64,000 nucleotides of DNA from Octopus vulgaris (taxonomy: Eukaryota), in contig OX597818.1 in NCBI GenBank assembly GCA_951406725.2, positions 90,148,001 to 90,212,000 on the forward strand, in the 5' to 3' direction. The notes under the pieces are model-generated. The model ran no database searches and was not told where the DNA came from. It saw only the letters and a program-made list of their open reading frames with translations. The translations under genes and the position numbers were made by a program. Shown piece after piece: positions 1-28,579 of this stretch; the stretch's first letter is position 1; the number at the start of each line of letters is the position of its first letter.

Positions 1-131
1 TACTGCTTGGAACTGCTCGAATACTCCGGAAGGTGCTCGAAAAATAACGGGTGTTACCTTAGTTCACTGGTAGTGAACAGCTGACACCGTAGTACATCTC
101 CAATGTTAGAAGCTGTGCAAAGGCAATAATG

Positions 132-171
<40 letters not shown>

Positions 172-197
172 TAATAATGATAATAATAATAATAATA
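1..197 (+). mobile_element. 3' end of an R4/Dong-like (RLE) non-LTR retrotransposon with (TAA)n tail
   Basis: LLGTARILRKVLEK* C-terminal motif, short UTR, then (TAA)n. Confidence 0.7.
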
Positions 198-258
198 TTT
201 CAGGATTCAGTAAAATAGCTCAAACAGAACAATCTTCACACGCAAGACATCCCCTATA

Positions 259-616
259 CAGTAATACCTCAATTATCGCGGGTGTTACGTTCCAAAATCT
301 CCCGCGATAGGTGAAAATCCGCGAAGTAGAAACAGTACTAAACTGTATATATTTTTTATCATTTTCATAATATGTATATATTTATTTTATTATAAGTGCA
401 GAACAACACCACACACTTACCTTCCAAGTTTCGTTTTCTATATAGTATGTGCGATTCTTTGTTCACTCGTCTTCGGTACACTACGTATTTTCTTTTAATA
501 TATTTATTTTAATTAATGTATAATACAGTGCAGTACTGAACTCTATTTTCATTTAGCAATTTATTAATTTTTATGCGTGAAAACGTTTATTTTACCACAG
601 AAATAATTAAAACGTA

Positions 617-683
<67 letters not shown>

Positions 684-1047
684 ATCGGCCACCGAAACCC
701 GCGATATAGCGAGGAGACCGTGATATAAATTTACATATATCAGGCAAAAAAATTCGCGATGTACTGAGTGCCGTGATATGGTGAGGGAGTACTGTATTTG
801 GAAAATCAGAGCAATTGTCGGTAACTTTCAAGGACCACGAAATGTTGATAAACCAGGTGACATACAAAGCATTACAATGGTCAGTCTACCTATATACAAA
901 CGGCATAAAAACTATAAAGTTTTGTTATACAGTAATAGATCTATATTTGTTTAACTCATTTGATACCAAGCTGCATATATTAGACAGAAAAATCCGCGAT
1001 GTACTGAGTGCGCGATAGGTGAACCGCGATATGGCGAGGGAGTACTG
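259..1047. mobile_element. Tigger/pogo-like MITE with two right ends
   Basis: TA|CAGTAATACCTC left TIR; GAGGGAGTACTG|TA right TIR ending at both 794 and 1047. Confidence 0.65.
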
Positions 1048-1468
1048 TACAACAATCACCCAATATTCTGGAAGGATACATCTCGTACAACATGAACTAT
1101 ACAAGATTAAGGCGCAATGAAATAACACAACTTGCATTACACACACACCACGTACAACAAAACACAAATTAATATAACAAGATTCACGATACCAAACCTC
1201 GTAACAAAACAAAACTGATGCAGTAAACCATCAGGAAGAGTCTACACTCGCCCCAGTTTCCAGTATAAATGTGATGTTGCACACACACACACAAGCGACG
1301 AATAGGTGCACCAATTTGATGCAGTAGAAACTAGCAGGAAACTACTGAAGAAAAAAATCAACAACAACAAAAAGAACCTAACGTACTCATGATTACGATG
1401 ACATTGGCAACAGCGCAGATAATGATGAGATGATGATAAGGAGGAACATGGGAATAGTAGTAGTAGTT

Positions 1469-1517
<49 letters not shown>

Positions 1518-1711
1518 AAGTAGTAGTAATAGTAATAGTAGGAGGTTGACGATGATGATATTGTTTATAATCTCAATTTAGCGTGACATGTTTTCTACGA
1601 GCAGGCTGACTTCCATAATATTCTTATAAAGGTGCAACCTAAACTGTCTGGAGCCTTGCCAAACAAGATTGTTCACCTCCTGAAATATATATATATATAT
1701 ATACGCACACA

Positions 1712-1808
<97 letters not shown>

Positions 1809-1810
<2 letters not shown>

Positions 1811-2229
1811 CGTAGGAGCTGCTGTGTGGTAACTAACTTGCTTACGAACCACATGGTTCCGGGTTCAGTCCCACTGCATGGCACCTTGGGCAAGTGTTTT
1901 CTACTACAGCCTCGGGCCGACCAAAGCCTTGTGAGTGGATTTGGTAGACGGAAACTGAAAGAAGCTCGTCTTATATATGTATATATATATGTATGTGTTT
2001 GTGTATATGTTTATGTGTCTGTGTTTGTCCCCCCACCCAACATCGCTTGACAACCGGTGCAGGTGTGTTTACGTCCCAGTAACTTAGCGGTTAGGCAAAA
2101 GAGAACCGATTGAATGAGTACTAGGCTTACAAAGAATAAGTCCTGGGGTCGATTTGGTCGACTAAAGGAGGTGCTCAGGTATGGCCACAGTCTAAATGAC
2201 TGAAACAAGTAAAAGAGTAAAAAGAGTAT
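1809..2229 (+). mobile_element. tRNA-derived SINE, family A (internal TA/TG microsatellite)
   Basis: Head GGCG(C/T)AGGAG..TGTGTGG with an A/B-box-like region and tail ..GAAACAAGTAAAAGAG; further copies near 3537-3835, 3893-4050(-), 6061-6428, 27575-27830(-), 48500-48720. Confidence 0.85.
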
Positions 2230-2768
2230 CTATCTATCTATCCGCTCAGTCGAAGTCGACTCTCGGTTACTCGTTGGATCAGTGTCCTCCAGTCAGTTCT
2301 ATCCTGGGCCGCTTCTTTCAGATTGGCTATGTCCATTCCGGTATCCCTCTTGATGGTGTCAAGCCAGCGGGTTCTTGGTCGACCTCTTCCTCTCTAGCCA
2401 CTGACCATTCCGAGCATGGTGTCCTTCTCCAGGGAATTTTTCCGCATAACATGACCGAAATATGCCAATCTATGCTTGGTGATCCTAGCTTCTAGCGACA
2501 TTTTCGGCCTGATTTGCTTAAGAACTTCTCCATTGGTGAGCCTCGCTGTCCATGCAATCCGTAAAAGTCTTCTCCAACACCATAGCTCGAATGCATTAAT
2601 TCTCTTCTGGTCAGCTTTCTTTAGTGTCCAGGTTTCGCATCCATATGTTGCTATTGGGAAGATAATTGCATTCACCAATCTGCATTTGGTAGCGAGTCTG
2701 ATGTCTCTACTCTTCCAGACCCTGCTCATGCTGACCATTGCCTTTCTGCCTAGTACTCTGCCTAGTAC
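2230..2768 (-). mobile_element. 5'-truncated RTE-clade LINE with 20-bp target-site duplication
   Basis: ATYGCETWTL..AFELWCWRRLLRIAW..YFGHVMR; TSD TAAAAGAGTAAAAAGAGTAT at 2210-2229 and 2769-2788; (ATAG)n tail. Confidence 0.88.
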
Positions 2769-3227
2769 TAAAAGAGTAAAAAGAGTATATATGTTTGTAT
2801 ATAAAAAGTGAAGAATGGAGTATATGGCATATTTACTCCGTATCTTACAAATCTTTCAACAACACGCAGGTGACCAATCAGACATTACATCTATAGATAA
2901 AAATGACATATTTTCTGTTTGTTTAAAATCTAAATTTCCATAGAAGAAATTTTCCGTTTTAACATTTCTGATAGCTGTCCAGCTCGTGAGTGCTACCTAC
3001 TATTTCACAAACTGCTCTAATTGCTATAACTAAGGCTTGGTCCACCTGATTTTATTTTCTTGTAACATTCTTAATAATTGCACATTTTTTAACGAAATTT
3101 TAGATACGCATTCCAAGGTGTAGTTACAAAGTTGCGGAGGAAGGTATTATTTAAGTTTAAAGACTGTTAATCGAATATATAAAAAAGGCCGCGTGAGGTA
3201 AAGGCCTGGATTATCTAATCCCTCTCG

Positions 3228-3266
<39 letters not shown>

Positions 3267-3269
3267 TTC

Positions 3270-3404
<135 letters not shown>

Positions 3405-3682
3405 GTCTCTTTCTCTCTGTCTCCCTGTCTCCCTGTCTGTCCGTCCGTCCGTCCTTCCGTCTGCATGTCTGTCTGTCTGTCTAGATATCTAGCTGTTTGT
3501 CTATAATGGCAGAATATGGTGATACATTTGGGGGCAGGTAAGAAGCTTGCTTCCCAACCACATGGTTCCAGGTTCAGTCCTACTGTGTGACACCTTAGGC
3601 AAGTATCTCCTACTATAAGCCTTGGGCCGACCAAAGCCTTGTGAGTGGATTTAGTAGACGGAAACTGAAAGAAGCACGTCGT

Positions 3683-3747
<65 letters not shown>

Positions 3748-3837
3748 CGTGTGTGTGTGTGTCTGCTTAAAAAGAAAATAAGCATGGGGTCGATAAATTC
3801 GATTAAAACTTCCTCAAGGCGGTGCCCCAGCATGACA

Positions 3838-3876
<39 letters not shown>

Positions 3877-4094
3877 TACACACACACACACATACGACAG
3901 GCTTCTTTCAGCTCCGTCTACCAAATTTCCTCACAAGGCTTTGGTCGGCACGAAGCTATAGAAGAAGATACTCTCCCAAGGTGCCACGCAGTTGGACTGA
4001 ACCTAGAACCATGTGGTTGGTAAACAGGGCTACTTACCACTCAGCCACTGGCCACCATGTACAAACGCTCAAACCTAGTCTATGTATTTGACAG

Positions 4095-4217
4095 ATATCA
4101 ACGAATGTGAACATCAAAACGGCGGCTGCTCTCAACTGTGCCATAATCTTATTGGAACCCATTTTTGCAGTTGCCAGAATGGCTATCATCTGCAGACTGA
4201 CATGAAAACATGTGAAG
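4095..4217 (+). CDS. Gene A exon: calcium-binding EGF-like domain 1 (gene starts upstream of the window)
   Basis: acag|AT...GAAG|gtaag; 123 bp, phase 1-1; [41 protein letters not shown] fits the 6-Cys EGF_CA consensus. Confidence 0.93.
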
Positions 4218-4349
4218 GTAAGATTCAGATTTTGAACTTGTTGGTTAATATTGTTTTGACATTTATTGCTTTGTTGGCAATCATTGTGACCTTTACTAAC
4301 ACTTTTGGTTATCATTGCCACCTTTACTTATCATGTTAGTTAATGCTTT

Positions 4350-4970
4350 AACCTTTAGTTACCTCGGTGGTTATTCCTATGACGTTTACTAACCCAAATG
4401 ATTATCGCAGTAACCTCTCTTGACGATGGATATCACTACGACCTTTCCTCAAATTGACTACCACTGATTTTGGCTGTCTCTGTGAAATTGACTACCACTG
4501 ATTTTGACTGTCTCTGTGAAATTTACTGACGTTGTTAGTTATAGCTGTGACACTTACTGATCTTGAATATCGCTGTGACCTCTGCTGGCCTTTCATAGTG
4601 CTACGTCCTTTTACTGACCTTGTAGGATATCAATGATCGTCATTGACCTTGTTAGTTATTACTGAGACCTCTGCTGATCTTAGACATTGCTGTGACTTTA
4701 TCGGTCTCGTTGGTTATTGCTGTGACTTTCACTGATCGCGTTAATCTTAACTGTGACGTTTACTAACTTCATTAATTATCGCGGTTACTTCTACTGACCT
4801 TGGAGATCACCTTTAGTGATTGATGTTATTGCTGTGACTTTTATAGTCGTTGTTGGTTACGCTGTGACCTTTGTTGACCTTGGATATTGTTGCAGCGTTT
4901 GGTGATTCATTTATCGCTTTGACTATTACTGACCTTGTTGGTTACGTTGGTTATGTGACCTTTACTGCTT
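4350..4970. repeat. Degenerate intronic minisatellite (~28-35 bp unit)
   Basis: Many variants of GTTATTGCTGTGACCTTTACTGACCTTG. Confidence 0.8.
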
Positions 4971-5084
4971 ATTTCAGAGAAAGAAATGCGCGGGTAAAAA
5001 TTTTAGTACAATTATAAGGTAGCAAGTTGTTATTTGGTGGAGACATTGATGTGTGGTAAAGGCGATCGCTTCACAGCAACTACG

Positions 5085-5149
<65 letters not shown>

Positions 5150-5626
5150 AGCTATGTAGTTAAGAAATTTTATCGCAACCGTGTGATTCCTAGTTCGATC
5201 CCACAATACAGCACACCTGAGGCAAGTATCTTCCGTAATTTGACTAATTGTGTGTAGAATTTAGTAGAATGAAACCGTGCAACATATACACGTTAGCTAT
5301 ATGGTTTAAGAAGTTTTATTCGCAACCATGTGGATCCTAGTTCGACCCCACGCTGCAGCACACCTGAAGCAAATGTCTTCTGCAATGACATTGGATTTGA
5401 CTAATAATTTATACGTAGACTTCGTCGCCTCTTCATCAGTATCATCATCTTTTCTGTCCTTTTCATTATAGTCACATCATACTTTGTACCGTCTGCATAA
5501 TTCTCCCTTTCGTTATTATTCCCCTCTCTATTATTCCCCTTCCTTTCCATCATATCTTCTCATCTGGCTCCTCATCATTAGAATCCTTACCAAGTTAGTC
5601 TTACGAAAATAATGGAATCCTTTCAG

Positions 5627-5749
5627 ATGTCAACGAATGTTTAATGAATAATGGAGGATGTAGCCAGCTATGTTACAATCAACCTGGATCGTTTGTTTGT
5701 TCCTGTGTCCATGGTTTCCAGTTGAGCAAGGATAGCGCCTCATGTGAAG
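5627..5749 (+). CDS. Gene A exon: calcium-binding EGF-like domain 2 (not in the ORF track)
   Basis: tttcag|AT...GAAG|gtaag; 123 bp, phase 1-1; [41 protein letters not shown]. Confidence 0.93.
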
Positions 5750-6174
5750 GTAAGAGAACTTTTCATTTCTTTCGTTTCATTCAAACTTTTTGCCTTCTTC
5801 AGTAAACGAAACATAGGTGATGTATAGCAACATCAGGAATTCAGAGAAAATTGCTTATATTGCTTAGTTCAATTCACTTTCCATTACGAGGGTGAACCAC
5901 ATCTAAAATATTTTGTTGTTCTTATTCCTCAGACGTCGATAAAATAATAACCAGTCAGTTGCGTCCGAAATGAATAATTTTCGAATTACTAACGTTATTT
6001 TAGAGAAGAAATATTTTTCAATGTTTATTGTTAATCTCTACGTTCCGGATAATCATCAACTGTGGTTCAGTCCCACTACGTAGCACCTTGAGCAAGTGTA
6101 TCCCACTGTAGATCCGAACCGACCAAAGCCCTGTGAGTGGATTTGGTAGACGGAAACTGAAAGACGCCCGTCAT

Positions 6175-6227
<53 letters not shown>

Positions 6228-6464
6228 TGTGTATCTGTGTTTGACTCATCCCATCATTGCATGACGACCAATGCTGGTGTGTTTACGACCCCGTAACTTA
6301 GCGGTTGGGCATATGAGATGATAGAATAAGTACTAGGCTTACAAAGAATAAGTCCTAGGGTCGATTTCTTCGACTAAAGGCGTTGCTCCAGTATGGCCGC
6401 AGTCAAATGACTGAAACAAGTAAAAAGGGAAAAGAGATATATAACACAATGAAGATTAGAAATG

Positions 6465-6512
<48 letters not shown>

Positions 6513-6538
6513 CATTCAATTATATATACATTCAAATG

Positions 6539-6591
<53 letters not shown>

Positions 6592-6647
6592 TTGAGTGTG
6601 TGTGTATATATGTATTTAAATATACTTTTTCATTTCTATCTCTCACT

Positions 6648-6708
<61 letters not shown>

Positions 6709-6841
6709 CTAAGCAATAAAGGGTTTGGCAACGAATTGCCTTACCACATACCGAATTTAGAAATAGCAGTCAAAGAGTTATAGCTATTTCTTCTACTACA
6801 CCCTTCATTAATTAATTTCACCCTTCATTATTACGGATAAC

Positions 6842-6873
<32 letters not shown>

Positions 6874-7196
6874 TATTATGCGAGTGTGTGAATGCTTGTG
6901 TAAATGTGTGTGCATATGTGTATAGGTGTGTATAGATAAGAACATAAACATGCGTGTATGCATATATATTTATGCGCGTATGCATCAACATGCATACTAC
7001 ACACAATCTCTCTCCCCCCACACACACATACCCCACACACTGCACATACACATATATTATGTTTCACACTCATATTTTCATACGCACACATGTGTACATA
7101 AATGTGTATACGTATGAGTATGAATGTATACATACATACATACATACATACTTACATACATACATACATACATATATACATACATACGTACGTACA

Positions 7197-7230
<34 letters not shown>

Positions 7231-7292
7231 CATACATACATACATACATACATACAAGCATGTATATATACAGGAAGGGCAACTCAATATAG

Positions 7293-7696
7293 TATATATC
7301 GTTGCTATTATATTAATCTGTCGTATATCCAAATTTGGCCAAATAAGTTTTTTCAGTATTTATTTTTGCTTGCAATAGCTGGTTCTTTTGGTCAAACTAT
7401 CCTATCTCCTGCTGCTTCAGATTCCAAGATACGAAAATTGTCAATGTGTAGTACAACGGTTTAGCATTTTTCAAAAGTATAGTAAGTCCCACTTACGACA
7501 GTTTTGCAAAAATATTCCTGACTGAAAATATTATACTTGGATGGAGTTATGATTTTATGCACCCAAAAAAGTATCATTGTTAAGCTGAACTTGTTGCTAA
7601 TGTAAAAAAGAAATGAATGGTGAAACTATTTTTTCGTTTTCTGAAAAAGCAACGTTTTGGACTTAGGACATTTTTGCATAATAGCAACGATATATA
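7293..7696. mobile_element. TA-flanked MITE
   Basis: TIR TATATATCGTTGCTATTAT (7293-7311) / ATAATAGCAACGATATATA (7678-7696). Confidence 0.65.
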
Positions 7697-8447
7697 TATA
7701 TACATGCATATACATACACGAGCACACACATTCACTCACGTACACATACGCATATATACATACGCATGTGCACTCATTCACACATATACACACACACACG
7801 CATTCCATATATACGCTTCTAGCATTTACTCAGTATACATTAATATGCATATGAGAAATAATTTACATCAATGTGTAAACATTTATCTCATCTTTATATC
7901 TGTGATAGGCAATTCATATATTTATATATTCATATATTTAGGAAAAGGAATTGATATTACCTCTTGGTATAGCTGTTGACATCTCCACTTTTACATATTC
8001 ATCGTGTTGATCTACGAGAAAAAATCCTGTCTATTTTAGAATACATTAATTTAACTAGTAAACGATTAAGTAATATGATATAAATAAGTGTATATATAAG
8101 TTTACAAATATACATTGCCAAGAAAAACCTCAGAGATTTAAAAAGTGAATGCGTGAATGTACTAAAAAATATTAGACAAATATTTATCTGAGATACCGAG
8201 TGAACATATTACGAAATGGATTTGGAGAGGGTGATGTGTAACTCCTCCGTTCATCAAAACCAAAGATGGGAAGTGTGCCGTCGAAATGAAATGAAATAAA
8301 TAAACAACAATACCCATGGCAGTGTCCCAGCAAGGTCACAGCTTCTTGAACAAGTAAAAGGAAAAGCATATATGTTCAGGCATGGCAAAGTAGTTACGAA
8401 GTACGTTATACACATTACTGACTTCTAGACTATCTATACATATAAAA

Positions 8448-8509
<62 letters not shown>

Positions 8510-8965
8510 ACACACATACACACATATATTTATGCATATACAAACATTTTATATGGGACTAATTCATTCGACTAAAAGTTCTTCAAAGCGGTACCCCAGC
8601 ATGGCTGCGGTCTAATGACTGAAGCAGATAAAAGATAAAAGGGAAAAATTAAAGATGAGTCCTGGAGACGATTTGTTCGACTAAAACCATTCAGAGCAGT
8701 TCCCTCAGTATATCTGCAGTTCAATGAATAAAAGAAATAAAAACAAACAAACAAACAACAACAACAACAAGAAAAAACCTGCAAAAAAAAATTAGAAATA
8801 ATACACCAATACCGATGACTCAGCCATGCCACATTCTCTTGATCGAGCAAGTAGAAGCATACATATCTGTAACTGTAAAGTTCTAGATAAGTACGTTGCT
8901 TACAGAAAACGAACTTGGCACTGACTGTTTTGTGGTCTGCTTCAGAAAGCTTTTTCAACTTGAAC

Positions 8966-9258
8966 TTAGTTAGTTAGTTAGTTAGTTAATTTGGCTCAAA
9001 AGCAAATAGCAAGGCCATGTAGGGGGACATGGAGTTAAGTACAGGGTGGTGTTCATGTAAAGAGTTCAGGCCACTTGAGGTCAAGGGAGGCTTTGAATAA
9101 AGCGGCCGTTGGCATCTTCACCATCTCGTCTGGCAGCTTGTTCCACGGATCCGCAACCCGGACGGAGAAAGCTCCTCTCCTTCGATTGAGATGAAATCGT
9201 CGCAGGTAGAGCTTTTCGGAATGACCCCGCAGCCGACGCTCTGGAGCAGGAGTAAACC
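8966..9258 (-). mobile_element. CR1-clade LINE 3' fragment with (TAAC)n tail
   Basis: [32 protein letters not shown], a typical CR1 ORF2 C-terminus. Confidence 0.85.
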
Positions 9259-9303
9259 TGCTGTTAATGCTGTTATTAATGTGTTTGTTTTTATGCTTTT
9301 CAG

Positions 9304-9426
9304 ATGTTGATGAATGTAAAGTGAACAACGGTGGCTGTAATAAGATGTGTAGGAATACTTACGGATCATATTCTTGTAACTGTCCATCTAAACATCAATT
9401 AGGTATCGATGAATCGACTTGCTGGC
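9304..9426 (+). CDS. Gene A exon: calcium-binding EGF-like domain 3
   Basis: ttttcag|AT...TGGC|gtaag; 123 bp, phase 1-1; [41 protein letters not shown]. Confidence 0.93.
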
Positions 9427-9494
9427 GTAAGGATATCTATTCATTCTATAATAATCTACATTAATCCCTTTTCTTTCTGTGTCTCTCCTCTTCC

Positions 9495-9545
<51 letters not shown>

Positions 9546-9549
9546 AAGG

Positions 9550-10680
9550 TAGAAAATGCTAAAATAATTTTATCATAAAAACATTTTAGTACCGGTTTCA
9601 GCTATTGAGACCTTTTCAACTCTAAGTATGGAAAACAATTAAATTTTGGAAAAAATTAAATGAAGGCGCAGGAGTGGCTGTGTGGTAAGTAGCTTGTTTA
9701 CCAACCACATGGTTCCAGGTTCAGTCCCACTGCGTGGCACCTTGAGAAAGTATCTTCTACTATAGACTCGGGCCGACCAAAGCCTTGTGAGTGGATTTGG
9801 TAGACGGAAACTGAAAGAAGCCCGTCGTATATATGTATATATATGTATATGCGTATATGTTTGTGTGTCTGTGTTTGTGCCCCCTAGCATTGCTTGACTA
9901 CCGATGTTGGTTTGTCTATGTCCCCGTCACTTAGCGGTTAGGCAAAAGAGACCGATAGAATAAGTACTGGGCTTACAAAGAATAAGTCCCGGGGTCGAGT
10001 TGCTCGATTAAAGGCGCTGCACCAGCATGGCCGCAGTCTAAATGACTGAAACAAGTAAAAAAAGAAAAAAGAGAGAAAAAAAGAAAAGTTTTTAAAAGAA
10101 TAGTTGCATAGTATTCAAATACAAGGGACATTTTCCTTGTTTCTGCCTGTCTCTGTCTCTCTTTTGACATGCGTGAGGAATGGTTTTATGTAGGTATCTA
10201 CAAAGTTATTGAAGCGGTCGGTTTTGGATGCGGGTCCTGCTATTATAGGTCCCAATTTAGATCCCTAGGAGTAGGGAGTAGGCTCTCCGACAAAGTCTAC
10301 AACTATATTACCAATTTCAAAAGTAAAACTATTCAATTCTTCAGTATTCCCAAGGTACACGAAAGTGAGAAAATAAGTAACATATTCACGAAAGCCACAG
10401 ACATGATAATAAAAGTCCCTACTCCTAATGACCTCAACTTCCTTCCTTGACATCCACAACAAGTCACTTTCAAGGCACTTGAACATTTAGCATCCTACTA
10501 CCCACAAGAGTAAACAAGAAAGATAGAGACAAGCAGAAACAAGGAAAATGCCCCTTGTATTTGAATACTATGTAAATATATTTTTAAAAAACTTTTCATT
10601 TAATTTTCATTTAATTGTTTACCATACTTACAATTGAAAAAGTCTCAATGATTGAAGCCGGTCCTGAAATGTTTTTTTCC
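9550..10680. mobile_element. Penelope-like remnant with inverted terminal repeats, interrupted by a SINE
   Basis: Arms 9575-9662 plus 10083-10165 are inverted copies of 10515-10672; the interior encodes QFFSIPKVHES..PNDLNFLP, resembling the PLE RT FYGLPKIHK..RPI region. Confidence 0.65.
9665..10062 (+). mobile_element. SINE family A, full length
   Basis: High similarity to 1809-2229. Confidence 0.85.
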
Positions 10681-10723
10681 TTTTATTTATTTTACATACA
10701 TATTTATTCAGATATATGTATTT

Positions 10724-10763
<40 letters not shown>

Positions 10764-11025
10764 TTATATAAATAAGGATAAGATCGTTAATTTAAAAATA
10801 AAATAACGATTTTATCAAGTGGTCAGCATGGAAAAAATTCCCTTCAAAGGTAATGATTATTAAAATTATAAATTAGGGTATCTACGAGATACCAACATGC
10901 TGAAAATAGCAGCCATGATCCGACTCTAAAACCAGATCATGGCTGCTATTTTCTGCATGGTGGTATCTCGTAGATACCTAATTTTATTATTTTATATATA
11001 TATATATATATATACATATATTTAA

Positions 11026-11066
<41 letters not shown>

Positions 11067-11113
11067 TAGATATATATGTATATATAAATATATATACATA
11101 TACATATATACAT

Positions 11114-11147
<34 letters not shown>

Positions 11148-11165
11148 TCAAATGGCAAATATGCG

Positions 11166-11231
<66 letters not shown>

Positions 11232-11379
11232 GTGTGTGTGTGTGTGTGTATAACAGACTACAATTGATTTTCTGTTGTAATTACCAGTGTTATTATTGGT
11301 AATTTAAATGAGAGTTCTACTTCTAGCGGGCAGTTATAGTTGTGTTCCATCATGATTGATATGTGTCTATAGCTACACA

Positions 11380-11870
11380 ATGCTATTTTAGGTCGGCAAG
11401 CTGGCCTAAGATTAATCACACCTTTATTTAACTATGTTAGAAGTGACTTTATTTAATCTAAGCAACATTGTAATAATAACCATATTGTGCCATAGAGCAA
11501 GCTGGGCCATATGATTTCTTATTTATATAAACGATATCAGTATTGACTTTAAGGAAGCTAAGCTACTATGTAACAGAAGTCAAGTGGAAATATTGGACAC
11601 CAGGTCAGAGAGTCTGCCGTTTACATTAAACATGTTAGGAGTAACTTTAGCTAAGCTATGAAATAATAGTAACTGTATTGTACTACATAGCAGAACCAGC
11701 CAGATAAGTTCCTCTTTACATTAAACAAGTTAACACTGGTTTTAGGTACGATAAGCTAAACTACTCTATAGTAGTTGCCATACTGTGTTATAGATCTGGT
11801 TGGACCAGGCAATTAGCTCCTTACATTAAGTATTTTTGTAGTGATTTTAGCTTAGCTAAGCTGCTTTATA
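11380..11870. repeat. Degenerate ~115-125 bp tandem repeat
   Basis: Recurring TTACATTAA..AAGCTAAGCT..ACTAT..TAGTAAC blocks; one more unit near 12345-12445. Confidence 0.6.
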
Positions 11871-11939
11871 ATGGATTCAAATTTTTCCACAAGGGCAGCC
11901 ATTTTAGGGAAGGGGATAAGTCTGTTCCTTCTCGAGCCA

Positions 11940-12159
11940 AGACGGACGCCGGTCCGTCGCAGGTGAGCTGCAAGATGCAGGAGGAAAGAGTGAGACAAAG
12001 TTGTGGCGAAAGAGTCAGCAGAAGTTCGCCATTACCTCCTGTCGGAGCTGCATGGAACTTAGGTGTTTCGCTCATACACACAACGCCCGGTCTGAGATTC
12101 GAACCCGCGATCCCTCGACCGCGAGTCCGCTGCTCTAACCACTAGGCCATGTGCCTCCA
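11940..12159 (-). mobile_element. tRNA-derived SINE, family C
   Basis: Minus-strand head GGAGGCACATGGCCTAGTGGTTAGAGCAGCGGACTCGCGGTCGAGGGATCGCGGGTTCGAATC with A and B boxes. Confidence 0.8.
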
Positions 12160-13246
12160 TGGAGGGATAAGTCGATTACATCGACCCCCTCCCCCCAGTA
12201 ATTCACTAGTACTTAGTTTATAGACCCAGAAAGGATGGAAGGCAAAGTCGATCTCGGCGGAATTTGAACTCAGAACATAGCGACGGGCGAAGTACCGCTA
12301 AGCATTTCGTCCAGCGTGCTAACGATTCTGCCAGCTCGCCGCCTTAAACTACTTTGTAATAGTAACCGTAGTGTATACCATAGAGCAAGCTGGGCTAGCC
12401 CCTTACAGTAACCCTGTTAGTAGTGAATTTAACAAAGCTAAGCTGCAACATCATCCTTTCTACTATATAGGCACAGGGCCCAAAATTATGGGGGAGGTGT
12501 AAGTCGGTTACATTGACCCCAGTGCGTAACAGTACTTACTTCATCGGCCCCGAAATAATAAAAGGCAAAGTCGACCTCGTCGGAATTTGAACTCAGAACA
12601 CGAAGATGGACGAAATGCCGCTAAGCATTTCGCTTGGCGTGTTAACGATTCTGCCAGCTCGCCGCCTTTAAGCTGCTATATAATAATAAGCATATTATAT
12701 TATATAAATATGCTGGATTTATTGGCAATTAAAATGCTTTCATTCTTGTACATAATGTGTAACTTTCAGTAACTTTATTTCAGCCTACTGGTGTATGATA
12801 GACCGTAATCTAACCGACTGTATGCCATGCAACCACGGCGAATATCAACCGGATCCAGGAGCTGACAATCAATTCTATCAATGTACCAATGGACTTATGT
12901 ATCTCCTAATGTGCCCACCAGGAACTATTTGGGACCAAAGAGTATGGAAATGTGGTGACAGTAAGTATTGGACATTCCATAATTTTCTTACTGTATGACC
13001 TTTAAAGTAGACACCTATTTCTTTACTACCCACAAGGGGCTAAACACAGAGGGGACAAACAAGGACAGACAAACGGATTAAGTCGATTATCGACCCCAGT
13101 GCGTAACTGGTACTTAATTTATCGACCCCGAAAGGATGAAAGGCAAAGTCAACCTCGGGGGAATTTGAACTCAGAACGTAACGGCAGGCGAAATACGGCT
13201 ACGCATTTCGTCCGGCATGCTAACGTTTCTGCCAGCTCGCCGCCTT
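12160..13246 (-). mobile_element. Three SINE family B copies (12160-12345, 12470-12668, 13015-13246) around the CBM14-1 exon
   Basis: Shared GGCGGCGAGCTGGCAGAA head and GCCGAGGTCGACTTTGCCTTTCATCC core. Confidence 0.8.
12784..12960 (+). CDS. Gene A exon: chitin-binding type-2 (CBM14/peritrophin-A-like) domain 1
   Basis: tttcag|CC...GACA|gtaagt; 177 bp, phase 1-1; PYWCMIDRNLTDCMPCNHGEYQPDPGADNQFYQCTNGLMYLLMCPPGTIWDQRVWKCGD with the FYQC..CPxGTxW..C motif. Confidence 0.9.
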
Positions 13247-13686
13247 AAAGTAGACACCTGCCATAACGTCACCTACTCCTTGGGTAAATTTAAGCGGAGT
13301 TCACTTTATGGTAAGCGCATACTGCAGATATGGACCTAAGGATTTATTCAGGTCGGATATCGATTATATAGATCTAACAAGTTTAGATCGGTATTGAAAG
13401 ATCATGAATACTGACTCTCTACCTCCAACTAATAAAAATCATTTAGAAAATCGATGGGACAGTCATGTTTGAAATACTTTTATTCATAGGTCAGCTAAAT
13501 AGGGGATGATCTACCAGATGATCAGATGAGGACTATCAACGATTTGTCCTCATCTGTCTGACATACTGGTATGCTTTCGGGGTAGAGGTGGATGTTTCGG
13601 GGCAAGAGTATCGAAGTGCTGAGTGCTGGCCAAACCATTATCACTATTTTTCATTTGTTCTCTTGGCAATCTGGTTATGCTTAGAT

Positions 13687-13771
<85 letters not shown>

Positions 13772-14124
13772 ACACAGACACATACACACATACATGAACA
13801 CACAGACACACACAGGAGCACGCACACACACACACACACATGAACACACACACATGAACGCACACATGCACACACAGACGTACACATGCACACACAGACG
13901 CACACACGCACACACAGACGCACACATGCACTCATATACACACTCAAATGGGTACACATATACAACGCTCTCTCACTCACTCACACATACATACCAACAC
14001 ACACACATGAACACACACACATACACACATACCAACACACACACATGAACACACACATGCACACACAGACACATTTACACACACAAATGGACACATATAT
14101 ACAACGCTCTTTCTCTCCCTCTCA

Positions 14125-14168
<44 letters not shown>

Positions 14169-14525
14169 AACAGGTACAAACAAACACGCATATTTCAATT
14201 GCTAAGCTAATTGAAACGTGAACAATAGTAATTTGAATAAACCCTTCGCAGTAAATACATATCGTCATCAGGGTTACCACTACTCTCCGAAAACAAGTAT
14301 GAAGAACAAGGACATAATTTCTTTTTCTTAGAATTATTTATAATAGGAGCGTCACTCGATAGACGAGTGACGCCCCAATATCAGCTTGATATGAATAAGT
14401 CATAAATTTAAGTTCCTGTGTGTATACTGTATGCTGTATACATTTGAGCCAGCGAGGAAGGGTGCACGAGGTCACGTAGCCTGCAAGAAACAGCATTGAA
14501 GTCTCTTTCAAATCGACCTTCTTAA

Positions 14526-15035
14526 CCCTTCGTGGGCCGGCGGGGTTGGAATTACACAAGAGGCCATTGGGGTCTCGAGCCCCCCCCCTTTTATTTCTGC
14601 ACATTTCCGCACTATCCATCAAGGATGGGAATGAAAAGAGGGGAATTAAGATATAATTTATTGACTGGATAAAACCTTTAGTGAAAGAAATCAACATTTT
14701 TTATAGTTTTGTAAACTATATATATGGCACAAAATATAAAATAAAACAGTACAAATACGAAGAAAATTGACTTATATAGTTCATCAGAATATCTGAAAAA
14801 AAAAAGAACAAGAAAAAATAATTTCACAGAAAGCCAATGGTGTCTAGTTGGACCCCAATGAGCATATTTTATGCTATGATATCCATATGACTGGAAATGT
14901 TTAACTTAAGATTTGTATATGCATTCATAAACTATAAAGTCATGAGATATAAAATTACTTAAGTAAAAATTGTAAAAGTTGCATAACTTTTAAAATTTGC
15001 TGGGGTTCCAAAGGATCCCGCCGACCCACGAAGGG
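14526..15035. mobile_element. piggyBac-type MITE
   Basis: TTAA|CCCTTCGTGGGCCGGCGGG ... CCCGCCGACCCACGAAGGG|TTAA. Confidence 0.85.
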
Positions 15036-15514
15036 TTAAAAGAGGAAGGAGGTATTCGGTGACGTAGCTCTGGATACCCTATGATTGTCAAATAAGACGG
15101 TATGGTCATCATCGGAATGCCTTAAATCACAAGTTTCAGGACTGACCTGGCATTAAACAACAACAATTATATATTGTTTGAAAAGGTGATGACTGGATGG
15201 TCGCGGATAAGATGTCTTTGATCATAGATCTGTTCCATTTGAGCTACCTTAGCCGAAACAACAACAATAAGACAGGCTAGTCATTGATGAGGTACCCTTG
15301 ACCGCATGTTCCTTCCTTTAAACTAAATTTAGGCGAAACAACAGCAACAAGAATGTACTGTGTTTGGAAAAGTCGGGACAGATGGTATGCCTTTGATCAT
15401 TGGGCATTTGGGCTAAACTTAGGCGAATGAAACAACGACAATAATCTATAAAATATTTCAGTTAATCAAGGAACTTTTCATTCTTTAACAGTTGAATTTG
15501 TATTCATTTTCCAG

Positions 15515-15577
15515 TTATGAAGATTGAGCTTGAGATGCTGAATGGGACCGAACCTGTGAACATGACCCTTGTAAATG
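15515..15577 (+). CDS. Gene A linker exon with two N-glycosylation sequons
   Basis: ttttccag|TT...AATG|gtagg; 63 bp, phase 1-1, open frame IMKIELEMLNGTEPVNMTLVN. Confidence 0.72.
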
Positions 15578-15962
15578 GTAGGTCTTAAAATATCTTGCTG
15601 CAAGCTCTGCCAAAGATCAGGATTTGTTCTTTCACTTTCATTGCTTACAACTTTTCTTCAATTTCTCTCTGTTTCTTAAATAGTTTCCTTCTCCCAAATT
15701 GACTTATTTATGTGAGCGATTGTTACATCTGTACTCATTGACAGGCACCTACTAACATAGCAAGTGCTGCATAATAGTGGTAAACACGGCGAAGCCAGTA
15801 CGTGGTCTGCACTCGATTTGAGGCAGCATCTGTTTATTATCGTGTCCATCACCAATAAACTGTAGAAACGAATGAACGTTACATAATTCATTTCGTGTAG
15901 TAAATTCACATTATTTTAAATTCTTATATTATATTACGTGTCTATACATTATTCTCTCTCTC

Positions 15963-16087
15963 TCTTTTACTTGTTTCAGTCATTTGACAGTGGCCATGCT
16001 GTCAAATGACACCAGCATCGGTTGTTAAGCGATGTTGGGGGCACAAACACAGACACAAACACATACACACACATACATATATACATA

Positions 16088-16135
<48 letters not shown>

Positions 16136-16312
16136 CATATATATATATACGACTGACTTCTTTCAGTTTCCGTCTACCAAATCCACTCACAAGGCTTTGG
16201 TCGGCTCGAGGCTATACTAGAAGACACTTGTCCAAAGTGCCACACAGTGGGACTGAATCCGGAACCATGTGGTTCATAAGCAAGCTACTTACCACACAGC
16301 CACTCCTACGCC
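15963..16312 (-). mobile_element. SINE family A, internally deleted
   Basis: Reverse-complement match to the family A head and tail. Confidence 0.8.
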
Positions 16313-16340
16313 TTATGGACATTTATGTGTATATCCATGT

Positions 16341-17241
16341 ACTAAGTGGTATTAAAAAGTTCCAGGAATAGTTATGTTTAATAAAAATAATTTATTTACC
16401 TAAGTTTTAATATAATCTCCTTCGAAAAAGTCACCTTGCGCAACAATACACCGGACCCAACATTCCTGCCACTTTTGGAATCCAGCCTGGAAGTCGTTTC
16501 CGTAAGTGAGTCGAGGAGTTTCTGCGATTCGCTCTGGACCTCGACATTGGTATTAAAGCAACGATCTTTGAGTTGCATTTTCATCTTGGGGAAGAGATGG
16601 AAGTCAGCAGGTGCTAAATCTGAGGAATTTGGCGGGTGCGGAGGCGATACCACGCTTTTGGCGAGAAACTCACGAGTGAGGAGAGCTCGGTGATAGGGTG
16701 AATTGTAGTCGTAAAGGATCCAGTATTTTGCGTTCCAGAGATCCGGTTGCTTTGGCCGAATGTCCTCTCTGAAACGCTTCAAAACGCCGCAGTCGAACTC
16801 TCAACTGACGGTCTGGCTGGGAGAGCGAATTCTCGATGCACAATCCCACATTTCCGCACGTGCTAGATCTTCCAGATTTCTCATCGCTTTTCAGGGATGT
16901 TCTTTCGCATTTGAAGCGTCTATGCCACTCAAAACATTGCGTGCAACCCATTGCCTCGTAACCGTAAGCTTGCCGAAGCATGCTCAATGTCTCTATAACA
17001 GACAAGTTTAACGCAAAATTTCACGTTGGCTCTTTGTTCCAACTTTCTGTTCATGACAAAACCGAAGACTACAGCATACACGTGATCCGGAAAATACGAA
17101 GTTGCGAAGTAATCACAGTGACGTCACTCGGCACACTGTGTCATAAAGGTCACTGCTAACTCCCACTGCGCATGCAACCGCGTGCTGCTATCTGTTGGCA
17201 CGCTACTGAACTGGTCCAGGAACCTTTCCATACCGATTCAC
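16341..17241 (-). mobile_element. Degenerate mariner transposon
   Basis: Frameshifted transposase pieces: HTH (QAYG..FEWHRRFK..SGRSS) and HPPNSSDLAPADFHLF (YSPDLAPxD motif); imperfect TIRs. Confidence 0.85.
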
Positions 17242-17347
17242 ATGTTAATGTGCACACACACTCACACATGCAAATGTTTGTTTCTATGTTAAGTTATGTA
17301 TATATATATACATATATATATAACGCAGGAGTAATTCAAATACTTTT

Positions 17348-17426
17348 ACTTCCGACACATGTTTCGAAGATATCACTGATATTATTCCAAAAGAATAAAA
17401 TAATGTAATCTTCTCTTCAGGGAAGT
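17348..17426 (-). ncRNA. Type I hammerhead ribozyme with minimal helix III
   Basis: Minus strand: ACTTCC-CTGAAGA-GAAGAT(long AT-rich insert)ATCTTC-GAAAC-ATGT-GTC-GGAAGT; all core nucleotides, helices I and II and a GUC site are present. Confidence 0.8.
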
Positions 17427-17503
17427 GAAGAAATGAAACGAAACTATTTATCTATTTTTCTATTTTTTCCGTGTTAATTGTTAACAAAGGAAAAATACAC
17501 ACA

Positions 17504-17538
<35 letters not shown>

Positions 17539-17705
17539 ATATATATATATATATAAACTGTAAAACAAACTGGGAGAAAAGAGACGGAACGAAGTGAGAA
17601 TTCGAAAATTCGAAAATTCAAACGAACCCGACGCGAAGCACTGTCAGACAATAGTGTAATAAATAAAATATATGCATACATACAAACATAAATGTACGTA
17701 CCGAC

Positions 17706-17792
<87 letters not shown>

Positions 17793-17805
17793 CATGTTTA
17801 CCCAG

Positions 17806-17985
17806 TGGATGACCTCTGCGTTGACAACTTCACTGGAGAATGTGTCATATGTTTACCTGACAAATACTACGAATATACAGGAGACCCACGTAAGTTTTAC
17901 CAGTGTGTGCACGATAATCTAGTTCTGCGAGAATGTCCAGATGGAACAATCTGGAACAAAGATATATCAACTTGTATCCACGAAG
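17806..17985 (+). CDS. Gene A exon: CBM14-like domain 2
   Basis: cccag|TG...GAAG|gtaag; 180 bp, phase 1-1; VDDLCVDNFTGECVICLPDKYYEYTGDPRKFYQCVHDNLVLRECPDGTIWNKDISTCIHE. Confidence 0.9.
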
Positions 17986-18289
17986 GTAAGCCCATACTTC
18001 CATCTTCTTTCGTAAATTTCATTTCAATATATCAATGTCATCTCTGCTCTTTCTGAAAACAGGTTTTACAGTTGTCAATTGTTGATAACCTAGAAGCATA
18101 CAAACAATAGTGTCACTATTTCGAACCCCTTTCTGATGCCACGTTAAGGCTCACTAAAATTAATAGTATGAAGACGAGTGGTGTGTTCAGTTGAGGAAAT
18201 TTTCGCCACATCAGATATCATACAAAATATAAAAACTACTCAGTTATAGTATTCTTGCATTATTTGCTAGTTCCAGGTTTCTTATTTCT

Positions 18290-18888
18290 TATTTCTTTAT
18301 TGCCCACAAGGGGCTAAACATAGAGGGGACAAACAAGGACAGACAAACGGATTAAGTTGATTAGATCGACCCCAGTGCGTAACTGATACTTAATTTATCG
18401 ACCCCGAAAGGATGAAAGGCAAAGTCGACCTCGGTGGAATTTAAACTCTGAACGTAGCGGCAGACGAAATACTTATTTCTTTACTGCCCACAAGGAGCTA
18501 CACACAGAGAGGACAAACAAGGACAGACAAACGGATTAAGTCGATTATATCAACCCCAGTGCGTAACTGGTACTTAATTTATCGACCCCGAAAGGATGAA
18601 AGGCAAAGTCGACCTCGGCGAAATTTGAACTCAGAACGTAGCGGCAGGCGAAATACCTATTTCTTTACTACCCACAAGGGGCTGAACACAGAGAGGACAA
18701 ACAAGGACAGACAAACGGATTAAGTCGATTATATCGACCCCAGTGTGTAACTGGTACTTAATTTATCGACCCCGAAAGTATGAAAGGCAAAGTCGACCTC
18801 GGCGGAATTTGAACTCAGAACGTAGTGGTAGACAAAATACTGCTAAGCATTTCGCCCGGCGTGCTAACGATTCAGCCAGCTCGCCGCT
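18290..18888 (-). mobile_element. Head-to-tail trimer of SINE family B
   Basis: Three ~183-bp units; only the last carries the full head. Confidence 0.85.
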
Positions 18889-19595
18889 TTTTGTTAGTTC
18901 AGGTTTCTAGCGTGACGATATTACAACACAAAAATTGACGTTTTACCGTAAATTGGTTTCCTCCTCCTTGGTATGATCTTATCTATTCGTAACGCGAATT
19001 AAATTCTGCCACTGACTTTCAAGTTAAATGGAGGTAAATGAACTTCGAAATCAATAGGAAAATATGTTTTACCTAAAGGAACTCTTCCTTACTGCAAGAT
19101 TTTCATGAACGCAAGGATTTCATAACGCTGGAGCTGCTTCTATGTGTATGTATGTATGTATGTATGTATGTATGTATGTATGTATGTATGTATGTATGTA
19201 TGTATGTATGCATGTATATATGTATGCATGTATGTATGTATTTATGTATGTATGTATGCATGTATGTATATATGTATACATGTATGTATGTATGTATGTA
19301 TGTATGTATGTATGTATGTATGTATATATGTATACATGTATGTATGTATGTATGTATGTACGTATGTATCTATGTATGTAATGAGTATGTGTATGTATGT
19401 GTGTACGTATATATGCGTGTGTGGTTCTGCGTGCATCTGTAAATGAGCATGTGTATATGTATATATATCTATATAAAGTATGAATGTATTTTACGTATAT
19501 TATATGCATGGTATATGCCAGATTCTAAACTATACGTCTATACCACTATCTCAAGAAGATTTTTATTTCTCATGTTTGATCTTTCTCTATTTCAG

Positions 19596-19631
19596 TATTA
19601 CCAGCTCCAGCGCAATTTAGGCCAGTATCAC
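19596..19631 (+). CDS. Gene A Pro-rich linker micro-exon
   Basis: ctttctctatttcag|TA...TCAC|gtgagt; 36 bp, phase 1-1; VLPAPAQFRPVS; strong splice sites. Confidence 0.7.
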
Positions 19632-20658
19632 GTGAGTAATATATTTAGTATCACCGAATTATAAATACATAACTTGAGTAGGTAGATTTTCCATCTTATC
19701 ACTAGAATTGTTGTTGTTGTTATCTTCGTTGTGGCTGCTCTTTTCGCCACATTTCAAAGCCTGCTTTGCTTCATACTTGAGTTCCGAACTCTGAAATGAG
19801 TCACAGAAGTGCGTTGTGGCATACGACTTGCCTACAGTATGTAAACCTTACTGTTTAAAAGTTTTCCTTTTTATTTTTCATTTATTGGATCTAAAGGAAG
19901 AAACCGCGCTCATGCCCTTGTACACCGTCTTAACCCAGTGAGATTGATGCCGTTTAATATTGGTCTCAAATTTTGGTGTAAGGCCAGCATTTTCGGGTTA
20001 AGGAATAAATCGATAACATTTACCCCAGTGGTCAATTGGTACTTATATTATCGATCCCGAAATGATGAAAGGTAAAAATGACTCCCACCAGCATTTGAAC
20101 TGGGAGCGTAAAGAAATGTCAGTAAGCGTCTTTCCTGGGTCAGTAACAATTCTGCCTGCTCGCCGCCTTATTGACACCATGATTATTACTGTCGCAATTT
20201 TATAATTCAACACTTGCAGGAGAAACAAAAAAAAAAAAGGAAGAGAATTCGAGAGGGTAGATATTTTGAGAAGGAAGGAATGGGTAGCGTGGAGTTTGGT
20301 TGCAACAAAGATGAAGATAAAAAAGTAGATGAGTGGCTCGGGAATTTCTAAGTAAAGGGGCATTAATCCAGTTACCTCAGAGGAACAGAAGCCATCATAG
20401 CAGTGGGAGAAAAACAAAATAGAGAGAGAAGTCAGCGCACCGGAGGTTCAAGTGTATATGTGACTTTACGCAAATTAGTCGTGTCTTCCTAGCAGTAGTG
20501 TCTGAAAAAGTACTATATCTATATTCTATTGTGGGCCTTATTTAAGCTTTAATAAAGTTTATTCGCAAAAGAACTTAACATTTTATGTGCTGATAGTGTA
20601 AAATAAGGTTAGTCCTAATAAGAATTTTATTAATATAATTTCCCCTCTCTTTAAACAG

Positions 20659-20846
20659 TGACAGAGATGTGTTTCTATCCAAATATGACCAAATGTTATC
20701 AGTGTGAGCCAGGATTCTACGAGGACGACGACAGTTGCCGACGTTTCTACACATGTGCCAACGGAGGCCTGGTCTCTATGTCGTGTCCAGATGGTACCCG
20801 CTGGAACCAGACTCAAACTCGTTGTGACAACGGTGTTATGTGCTGA
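20659..20846 (+). CDS. Gene A terminal coding exon: CBM14-like domain 3 and stop codon
   Basis: ttaaacag|TG, phase 1; LTEMCFYPNMTKCYQCEPGFYEDDDSCRRFYTCANGGLVSMSCPDGTRWNQTQTRCDNGVMC*. Confidence 0.9.
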
Positions 20847-21048: not shown

Positions 21049-21110
21049 AATAAACGTTTCTTATGCCACACAACGAGTTGTTGTCGTCTTGTTCTTGTTC
21101 TTGTTCTTCT
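21049..21110 (+). terminator. Probable polyadenylation signal of gene A
   Basis: AATAAA at 21049-21054, about 200 nt after the stop, followed by a GT/T-rich element (gttgttgtcgtcttgttcttg). Confidence 0.6.

Positions 21111-28545: not shown

Positions 28546-28579
<34 letters not shown>

What the first reader, a model, noticed from the sequence alone, without database searches (positions are those of the whole stretch)
4095..20846. Extracellular protein joining calcium-binding EGF repeats to three chitin-binding CBM14 domains
Seen: 8 exons splice into one open frame of ~337 aa, EGF_CA x3 - CBM14 - linker - CBM14 - Pro linker - CBM14 - stop, with no transmembrane segment and six N-x-T sequons. 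Established: tandem EGF_CA repeats form Ca-stiffened rods (fibrillin, fibulin), and CBM14 binds chitin. Inference: a rod-like chitin cross-linker or adaptor for a chitinous structure (beak, radula, sucker cuticle, gut lining), or a chitin-sensing defence protein. I do not recognise a named gene with this C-terminal architecture.
Basis: partly seen in the sequence, partly recalled or inferred. Interest (0 to 1): 0.7.

Follow-up and report, generated by a model that had tools for sequence, protein, structure and literature searches.

The report
Octopus calcium-rod tether with chitin-type tips
This is the tail end of a real, spliced octopus gene for a predicted secreted protein with a small head, a rod of 23 EGF repeats and three chitin-binding-type tips, which likely tethers the chitin cuticle to the tissue beneath, although all three tips lack the residue that grips chitin in the best-studied relative.

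Summary
The whole gene encodes 1239 aa: signal peptide, EMI-like head, 23 EGF repeats (18 with the full calcium-binding consensus), three CBM14-fold modules, no membrane anchor. Contigs from 4 of 4 runs splice EGF to CBM14 at 9426/12784; in 3 of 4 one contig runs from head to CBM14 with exactly the predicted spacing. The tail is already in databases as uncharacterised models (O. bimaculoides 293/301 identical; Argonauta 81/104). Two shorter paralogues (8 and at least 5 EGFs) and a neighbouring 11-module gene share an unusual cysteine-capped CBM14 module. Chitin binding is doubtful: all three modules lack the aromatic residue essential in human chitotriosidase, and the best fold matches, Der p 23 and EHEP (tied with binders), are reported non-binders. 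Best reading: a calcium-stiffened tether between cuticle and matrix; rival: a self-assembling fibre like octovafibrin, which is a different protein. This scan has noted EGF-rod-plus-CBM14-tip designs on other DNA (octopus Delta-like cluster, Owenia). A new arrangement of known parts, not a new kind of system.

The parts
1..4094 (+). Intron before EGF 21; it leads to the 23 coding exons that lie upstream of the window at G000:C5:90088264-90146449 (signal-peptide exon, two exons of an EMI-like head, EGF exons 1-20)
   Evidence: Upstream exons; 2778 nt between exon 2 and position 9302 in 3 contigs equals the predicted sum
4095..4217 (+). EGF 21 (His at the aromatic place of the calcium consensus)
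5627..5749 (+). EGF 22, full calcium-binding consensus
9304..9426 (+). EGF 23, full consensus, last repeat of the rod
   Evidence: spliced to 12784 in 4 of 4 runs
12784..12960 (+). CBM14-fold module 1 (4-Cys core plus extra N-terminal Cys pair)
   Evidence: Pfam CBM_14 30.5 bits, cut-off 22.1; alignment
15515..15577 (+). Linker exon, 21 codons, two sequons
   Evidence: present in the O. bimaculoides model
17806..17985 (+). CBM14-fold module 2 (4-Cys core plus extra pair)
   Evidence: Pfam 38.3 bits; model pLDDT 79.8; fold matches
19596..19631 (+). Proline-rich linker exon, 12 codons
   Evidence: present in O. bimaculoides and Argonauta models
20659..20846 (+). CBM14-fold module 3 (all six canonical Cys plus extra pair) and stop codon
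   Evidence: Pfam 42.6 bits
20847..21076 (+). 3' untranslated region with AATAAA at 21049
   Evidence: by my arithmetic, three of four contigs end at about 21065-21076, the fourth at about 21018

Best explanation
The gene is spliced into one message for a 1239-residue protein, predicted to be secreted, that likely works as a calcium-stiffened spacer or tether between a chitinous cuticle and the matrix of the tissue that makes it. Shown: exon structure, splicing from head to first CBM14 module, domain order, conservation in two other octopods. Inferred: (1) the signal peptide exports it and nothing anchors it in a membrane; (2) calcium bound at the joints of the 23 EGF repeats holds them as an extended rod, roughly 60 nm if 2.8 nm per repeat is assumed; (3) the EMI-like head binds itself or another matrix protein; (4) the three tail modules hold on to the chitin-protein layer, weakly and by avidity or through other chitin-bound proteins such as the 11-module product of the neighbouring gene, rather than by the classic tryptophan platform. 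Paralogues with 8 and at least 5 repeats would give shorter spacers.
For: One contig spans head to CBM14 in 3 of 4 runs with the exact predicted spacing. 18 of 23 EGFs carry the full calcium consensus and 22 of 23 carry Gly-aromatic after the fifth Cys, missing only in the last repeat; that this residue packs on the next repeat is recalled from fibrillin work. CBM_14 above cut-off in 3 of 3 modules and CBM14 fold for module 2. The gene lies 13 kb upstream of a gene made of 11 copies of the same module, 9 of which keep the aromatic residue. Orthologues 293/301 and 81/104 identical; both exonic differences listed for the run contigs are synonymous. Octopus has chitinous sucker lining that is shed and renewed (PMC3672162, passage) and a cuticle-lined foregut (PMC9501996, passages). 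EMI domains are reported to mediate self or head-to-tail contacts in two-hybrid tests (PMC3342094, passages).
Against: No tissue data and no binding data. The Trp465-equivalent aromatic is missing in 3 of 3 modules here and 7 of 7 modules of the EGF-bearing genes; removing Trp465 and Asn466 abolishes binding in chitotriosidase (PMC4844120). All three modules are acidic (net -4, -7, -3). The top fold matches, Der p 23 (Z 6.3) and EHEP (Z 6.0), are reported not to bind chitin (PMC10619976), though chitotriosidase (Z 5.3) is within about 1 of them. The head does not reach Pfam EMI. Softening this: PMC10619976 says binding residues are not conserved among CBM14 binders, and 16 of 95 proteins with three or more modules in the hit list also lack the aromatic throughout.
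Confidence: 0.45

Rival explanations
1. The protein is a self-assembling load-bearing fibre. The CBM14-fold tail has lost sugar binding and, with the EMI-like head, joins molecules end to end, as the lectin ends of octovafibrin are proposed to do.
For: Same plan as octovafibrin (end domain - long EGF run - end domain) and similar mass, 135.2 kDa mature (PMC10336842). Aromatic platform lost in all 7 modules of the EGF-bearing genes but kept in 9 of 11 in the EGF-less neighbour. EMI head-to-tail precedent (PMC3342094).
Against: Cysteines are even in number in every domain (8 in the head, 6 per EGF, 6/6/8 in the modules), so no free cysteine is evident for cross-links. The seven modules are related by descent and are not independent losses.
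Confidence: 0.27
2. It is a soluble mucus or gut-barrier protein that binds foreign chitin, polyphenols or microbes with its tail and presents them at the end of a long stalk.
For: Three CBM14 modules joined by linkers is also the layout of EHEP, a sea-hare gut protein that binds phlorotannin (PMC10619976), and EHEP is the second fold match. Spliced contigs occur in four studies.
Against: No effector domain; a 23-repeat rod is typical of matrix proteins; only three such genes found, with no sign of the diversification expected of recognition proteins (lower bounds).
Confidence: 0.13
3. The EGF array and the CBM14 exons belong to separate genes, or the locus is a pseudogene, and the fusion is a reading artefact.
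For: Public models are fragments (301 and 104 aa) and no full-length record was found.
Against: Spliced junction in 4 of 4 runs, head-to-CBM14 contig in 3 of 4, one open frame over 31 exons, same junction in an independent model and the same exon order in two paralogues.
Confidence: 0.02

Closest known systems
Uncharacterised octopod models: O. bimaculoides UniRef100_A0A0L8GFF3 (301 aa) and Argonauta hians GAB1598776.1 (104 aa, partial)
   Same: Orthologous tail: 293 of 301 and 81 of 104 identical, same linkers
   Different: Fragments with automatic names only; they lack the signal peptide, head and most of the rod
Octovafibrin (O. bimaculoides egg-tether protein, PMC10336842)
   Same: Octopus, secreted, about 135 kDa, long EGF run between two end domains
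   Different: C-type lectin ends, 29 EGFs called non-calcium-binding, other cysteine spacing; 0 of the 4 peptides that I tested (of 22 listed) occur here. A different protein.
MEGF6 / EGFL7-type EMI-EGF proteins and Lingula XP_013380568.1
   Same: Signal peptide, EMI-type head, then EGFs of the FXa_inhibition / EGF_CA type; the head matches the Lingula head at pairwise E 5e-8; the Lingula front end points to MEGF6, EMI and EGFL7 clusters at 0.83-0.84, leads only
   Different: Tail: three CBM14-fold modules here; no CBM_14 in the Lingula protein; MEGF6 tail of laminin-type EGFs is recalled
Fibrillins and fibulins
   Same: Tandem calcium-binding EGF rod; many of the 120 listed hits carry fibrillin, fibulin or LTBP names
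   Different: No TB domains or fibulin end domain; none of the 120 listed hits carries CBM_14
CBM14 proteins: chitotriosidase CBM, tachycitin, Avr4, Der p 23, EHEP
   Same: Fold and core cysteines
   Different: Extra N-terminal Cys pair (C-x7/9-C-x2-C), no Trp465 equivalent, attached to an EGF rod
Pif / BMSP / LamG3 shell and eggcase proteins
   Same: Molluscan matrix proteins with tandem ChtBD2 domains (10.1101/2021.07.10.451900, passages)
   Different: They carry VWA and/or laminin G3 domains and no long EGF rod
Drosophila Dumpy (recalled, not checked here)
   Same: Works-like analogy: EGF-rich tether between epidermis and cuticle
   Different: Membrane-anchored ZP protein with DPY modules, no CBM14

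Membership tests
Calcium-binding EGF repeats | Six cysteines and D-x-D/N-E/Q ... D/N ... Y/F consensus | tested here: met
   6 Cys in 23 of 23; full consensus in 18 of 23 (17 plus EGF1, whose first Asp is shown); 4 lack only the aromatic, EGF14 is degenerate
Calcium-binding EGF repeats | Pfam EGF_CA above cut-off | tested here: met
   3 of 3 window exons; the 20 upstream exons were not sent to Pfam
Calcium-binding EGF repeats | Measured calcium binding and rigidity | not testable with these tools
   needs experiment
CBM14 / peritrophin-A | Pfam CBM_14 above cut-off and beta-sandwich fold | tested here: met
   3 of 3; module 2 model matches CBM14 structures, Z 4.2-6.3, the seven best rows, Foldseek E 3e-3 at best
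CBM14 / peritrophin-A | Six cysteines C1-C6 | tested here: inconclusive
   Met in module 3; modules 1-2 lack C2 and C6; Der p 23 and chitotriosidase also keep only two of the shared disulfides (PMC6128652, PMC4844120)
Chitin-binding CBM14 of the chitotriosidase type | Exposed aromatic two residues after C5 (Trp465) | tested here: not met
   Asp, His, Asn in modules 1-3; position mapped and PMC5459812; baseline 502 of 853 modules aromatic
Chitin-binding CBM14 | Measured chitin binding | not testable with these tools
   needs pull-down or calorimetry
EMI domain | N-terminal position, encoded by exons 2 and 3 | tested here: met
   PMC3342094 gives this organisation for EMILIN1; the intron falls at phase 2 in an Arg codon, as at the exon ends of octopus Pfam-EMI hits (my reading)
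EMI domain | C-terminal consensus WRCCPG(Y/F)xGxxC | tested here: inconclusive
   Close but not exact: Tyr for Trp, Arg for Pro, Trp for Tyr/Phe, longer last gap; pairwise E 4e-7 to an octopus Pfam-EMI exon
EMI domain | Seven cysteines; Pfam EMI score | tested here: not met
   Eight cysteines; no Pfam hit on either half-exon or in the genome search; the joined head was not scanned. Called EMI-like only.
Fibrillin | TB (8-Cys) domains among the cbEGFs | tested here: not met
   Contig arithmetic leaves no room for other exons between head and CBM14
Octovafibrin | C-type lectin ends, 29 non-calcium EGFs, its peptides | tested here: not met
SCUBE | C-terminal CUB domain (recalled) | tested here: not met
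   Protein ends with CBM14 module 3; only a sub-threshold Ephrin_rec_like hit on module 1 (17.1 bits, cut-off 23.1)
Pif / BMSP | VWA and/or laminin G3 domain with ChtBD2 | tested here: not met
   Neither fits in the 31-exon model

The most novel reading that the evidence does not exclude
Octopods built a small family of length-graded molecular rulers (23, 8 and at least 5 calcium-stiffened repeats) by grafting a cysteine-capped CBM14 module onto an old EMI-EGF protein; the grafted modules gave up chitin binding and now dock onto the 11-module chitin-binding protein encoded next door, or onto the EMI head, so that the two neighbouring genes form a two-part anchor that sets the spacing between the sheddable sucker or gut cuticle and its epithelium.
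Probability: 0.15. Interest if true: 0.68.

Novelty: new variant of a known kind. Interest (0 to 1): 0.42.

Why it matters
How cephalopod chitinous linings (sucker cuticle, foregut cuticle, beak) are fastened to and released from soft tissue was not described at the protein level in the passages I read. A secreted rod with a matrix-type head and CBM14-fold tail, in three lengths and beside a dense chitin-binding-type gene, is a concrete candidate that can be tested with tissue RNA data and pull-downs. It also corrects fragmentary public gene models, and offers a natural pair of related CBM14 modules with and without the aromatic platform. It does not introduce a new fold or a new kind of system.

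Tried and rejected
Word-based protein searches found no full-length orthologue: exon 8 gave 1 candidate and no hit; the O. bimaculoides fragment gave 423 hits of 875 candidates, the 120 listed being EGF-rich proteins without CBM_14; the head exon gave no candidate. These are weak negatives by the tool's own warning. Of the first 150 of 1815 profile hits to the CBM modules, none carried EGFs by my local scan. The ESM Atlas gave only leads of 0.81 or less for the tail fragment. A single-sequence fold of the 301-aa fragment failed (pLDDT 35.5) and was not used. No RNA holder listed on record and no tissue named, so the expression site stays open; contigs drop rare isoforms, so read-through into the neighbouring gene is not excluded. 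An upstream VWA domain (matrilin-like) was considered and rejected: no room in the contigs. Identity with octovafibrin rejected. A script search for signal-peptide exons by hydropathy missed the true one. Literature: the searches octopus+chitin-binding+EGF (14 listed), ChtBD2+EGF_CA+mollus, ChtBD2/EGF/domain architecture/cephalopod (25 of 29 listed), DgCBP/beak and octopus/sucker/cuticle/chitin/proteome showed no paper describing this protein; most were seen as listings only and supplements of proteome papers were not checked. No complex prediction was sent: the head is split over two exons and no specific pair had enough support.
Full report
Observation. All have AG acceptors, the first seven GT donors, all phase 1-1, and they give one open frame of 336 residues plus stop with six N-x-T sequons and no hydrophobic segment. 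Pfam EGF_CA (30.5, 31.6, 29.4 bits; cut-off 27) and CBM_14 (30.5, 38.3, 42.6; cut-off 22.1) pass in all six domain exons; FXa_inhibition scores higher still on the EGFs. An AATAAA lies at 21049.

Source. The window is G000:C5:90148001-90212000 in a 2.8 Gb genome. The neighbouring gene matches an Octopus sinensis model at up to 100% per exon, so this is an octopus.

The whole gene. Places upstream of the window are given as negative window coordinates (G000:C5 position = 90148000 + coordinate). A scan of 200 kb on each side found 20 more EGF exons upstream, from -45518 to -1551, all on the + strand with phase 1-1 splice sites, and two exons for a cysteine-rich head at -49603 to -49502 and -47391 to -47312. 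Contigs of four public runs (four studies, two organism labels; 4 of the 24 runs listed; RNA status is a guess on record, but the contigs skip introns exactly) all join 9426 to 12784 across a GT..AG intron. All four also cover exon 2, followed by exon 3 and preceded by the same upstream letters, which locate exon 1 at -59736 to -59666 with an in-frame ATG and a signal-peptide-like sequence (judged from sequence, no predictor run). In 3 of 4 runs one contig holds both exon 2 and the CBM14 junction, 2778 nt apart, exactly the sum of exon 3 and 22 EGF exons; in the fourth the two places lie on two contigs. Downstream of 12960 the contigs run 688, 686, 697 and 639 nt; 467 are coding, which puts three ends 16-27 nt after the start of the AATAAA (my arithmetic). 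The protein has 1239 residues in 31 exons over 80.6 kb, 166 cysteines, 11 sequons, no RGD, its strongest hydrophobic stretch in the first 26 residues, and a mature mass of 135.2 kDa, pI 5.05.

The rod. All 23 EGFs have six cysteines; 18 have the full calcium consensus; four lack only the aromatic and EGF14 is degenerate; 22 have Gly-Tyr/Phe after the fifth cysteine and only the last lacks it. That such repeats form stiff rods is established for fibrillin (recalled). About 60 nm follows only if 2.8 nm per repeat is assumed.

The head. Eight cysteines in 61 residues, N-terminal, on exons 2-3, ending in a near match to the EMI consensus WRCCPG(Y/F)xGxxC given in PMC3342094 (passages). It matches the head of a Lingula EGF protein (pairwise E 5e-8) and an octopus Pfam-EMI exon (E 4e-7), but Pfam EMI does not find it. 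I call it EMI-like.

The tail. Each module begins with an extra cysteine pair (C-x7/9-C-x2-C). Modules 1-2 have only four of the six canonical cysteines; module 3 has all six. A model of module 2 from 16 aligned modules (pLDDT 79.8) matches CBM14 structures: Der p 23 Z 6.3 (rmsd 2.4, 47 aligned), EHEP 6.0 (3.0, 54), chitotriosidase 5.3 (3.3, 50), Blo t 12 5.2, Avr4 5.0, tachycitin 4.2; rows within 1 are tied. In chitotriosidase Trp465, two residues after the fifth core cysteine, has the strongest effect on binding (PMC5459812, passages; PMC4844120, passages). Here that place holds Asp, His and Asn. Avr4 uses Trp100 and Asp102 either side of that cysteine (PMC6128652, passages); module 3 has Asp there, but Argonauta has Ser. 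EHEP and Der p 23 are stated not to bind chitin, and binding residues are said not to be conserved among binders (PMC10619976, passages). In the profile hits 502 of 853 modules have the aromatic and 16 of 95 proteins with three or more modules lack it throughout (three octopod proteins left out), so the lack is a warning, not proof.

Relatives. The tail is in databases as O. bimaculoides A0A0L8GFF3 (293 of 301 identical) and Argonauta GAB1598776.1 (81 of 104), both uncharacterised. Thirteen kb downstream on the same strand starts a gene for a secreted-looking 1350-residue protein with 11 such modules and no EGF (O. sinensis LOC118763360); 9 of 11 keep the aromatic. Its Argonauta counterpart has a nearby locus number, suggesting conserved order. 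Two paralogues repeat the design: C29 with an EMI-like half-exon, 8 EGFs and 2 modules, and C26 with 5 EGFs found and 2 modules; their expression was not tested, and none of their four modules has the aromatic. Three genome searches found the full capped module only at these loci (lower bounds). Besides the octopod proteins, the cap pattern appeared in 2 unnamed proteins among 164 examined. Squid and cuttlefish could not be checked.

Mechanism. Most likely a secreted calcium-stiffened tether between a chitinous cuticle and the tissue matrix (0.45), the tail holding weakly by avidity or through other chitin-bound proteins. Octopus has such cuticles on suckers (PMC3672162, one passage) and foregut (PMC9501996, passages). 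The main rival is a self-assembling fibre (0.27) on the plan of octovafibrin (PMC10336842; abstract, one section, part 1 of the discussion and the supplement read), which is a different protein. A soluble barrier or defence role is less likely (0.13). An artefact is nearly excluded (0.02). The remainder covers uses I have not thought of.

Novelty. All parts are known families; the arrangement EMI-like, 23 EGF, 3 CBM14 was not found described in my searches (mostly listings; PMC13425148 and the Argonaut eggcase preprint read as passages; supplements of proteome papers not seen and may list it). Earlier notes of this scan describe EGF rods tipped with CBM14 in an octopus Delta-like cluster and in Owenia; I did not check them, but they suggest the design recurs. 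One of them gave the octovafibrin lead. Verdict: new variant of a known kind, interest 0.42.

Noticed in passing
window 34045-63847 and on to about window coordinate 122931 (G000:C5, + strand): Neighbouring gene for a 1350-residue protein with 11 cysteine-capped CBM14 modules and a glycine-rich stretch (O. sinensis LOC118763360, listed as isoform X50, so many isoforms); 9 of 11 modules keep the chitin-stacking aromatic. A better direct chitin-binder candidate than the finding itself.
   Followed up: partly
G000:C29:16790533-16829000 (-) and G000:C26:15165230-15195700 (-): Two paralogues with the same EGF-then-CBM14 layout (8 and 5 EGFs found, two modules each); for the C26 copy no further EGF or head exon was found within 60 kb upstream, so it may be partial.
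   Followed up: partly
G000:C29:16861876-16877725 (+): Another EMI-like head followed by at least five EGF exons, four of them identical in protein sequence, divergently placed beside the C29 paralogue; its 3' end was not fetched.
   Followed up: no
window 31242-32411 (-): Open frame resembling a Penelope-type retroelement reverse transcriptase (label recalled, not tested).
   Followed up: no
window about 16400-17200 and 28560-29800: Stretches that look like decayed DNA-transposon copies, one inside the intron between linker 1 and module 2 (by eye, not tested).
   Followed up: no
proteins P0143 and P0065 (unnamed database records): The capped CBM14 module also occurs in two unnamed proteins; P0143 adds a Ser/Thr-rich stalk and a hydrophobic C-terminal stretch, so a membrane-bound form of the module may exist in some organism.
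   Followed up: no
G000:C5:90069585-90074571 (upstream of the gene): Two long open frames (530 and 1120 residues) of a LINE-like element (label from sequence motifs, recalled).
   Followed up: no
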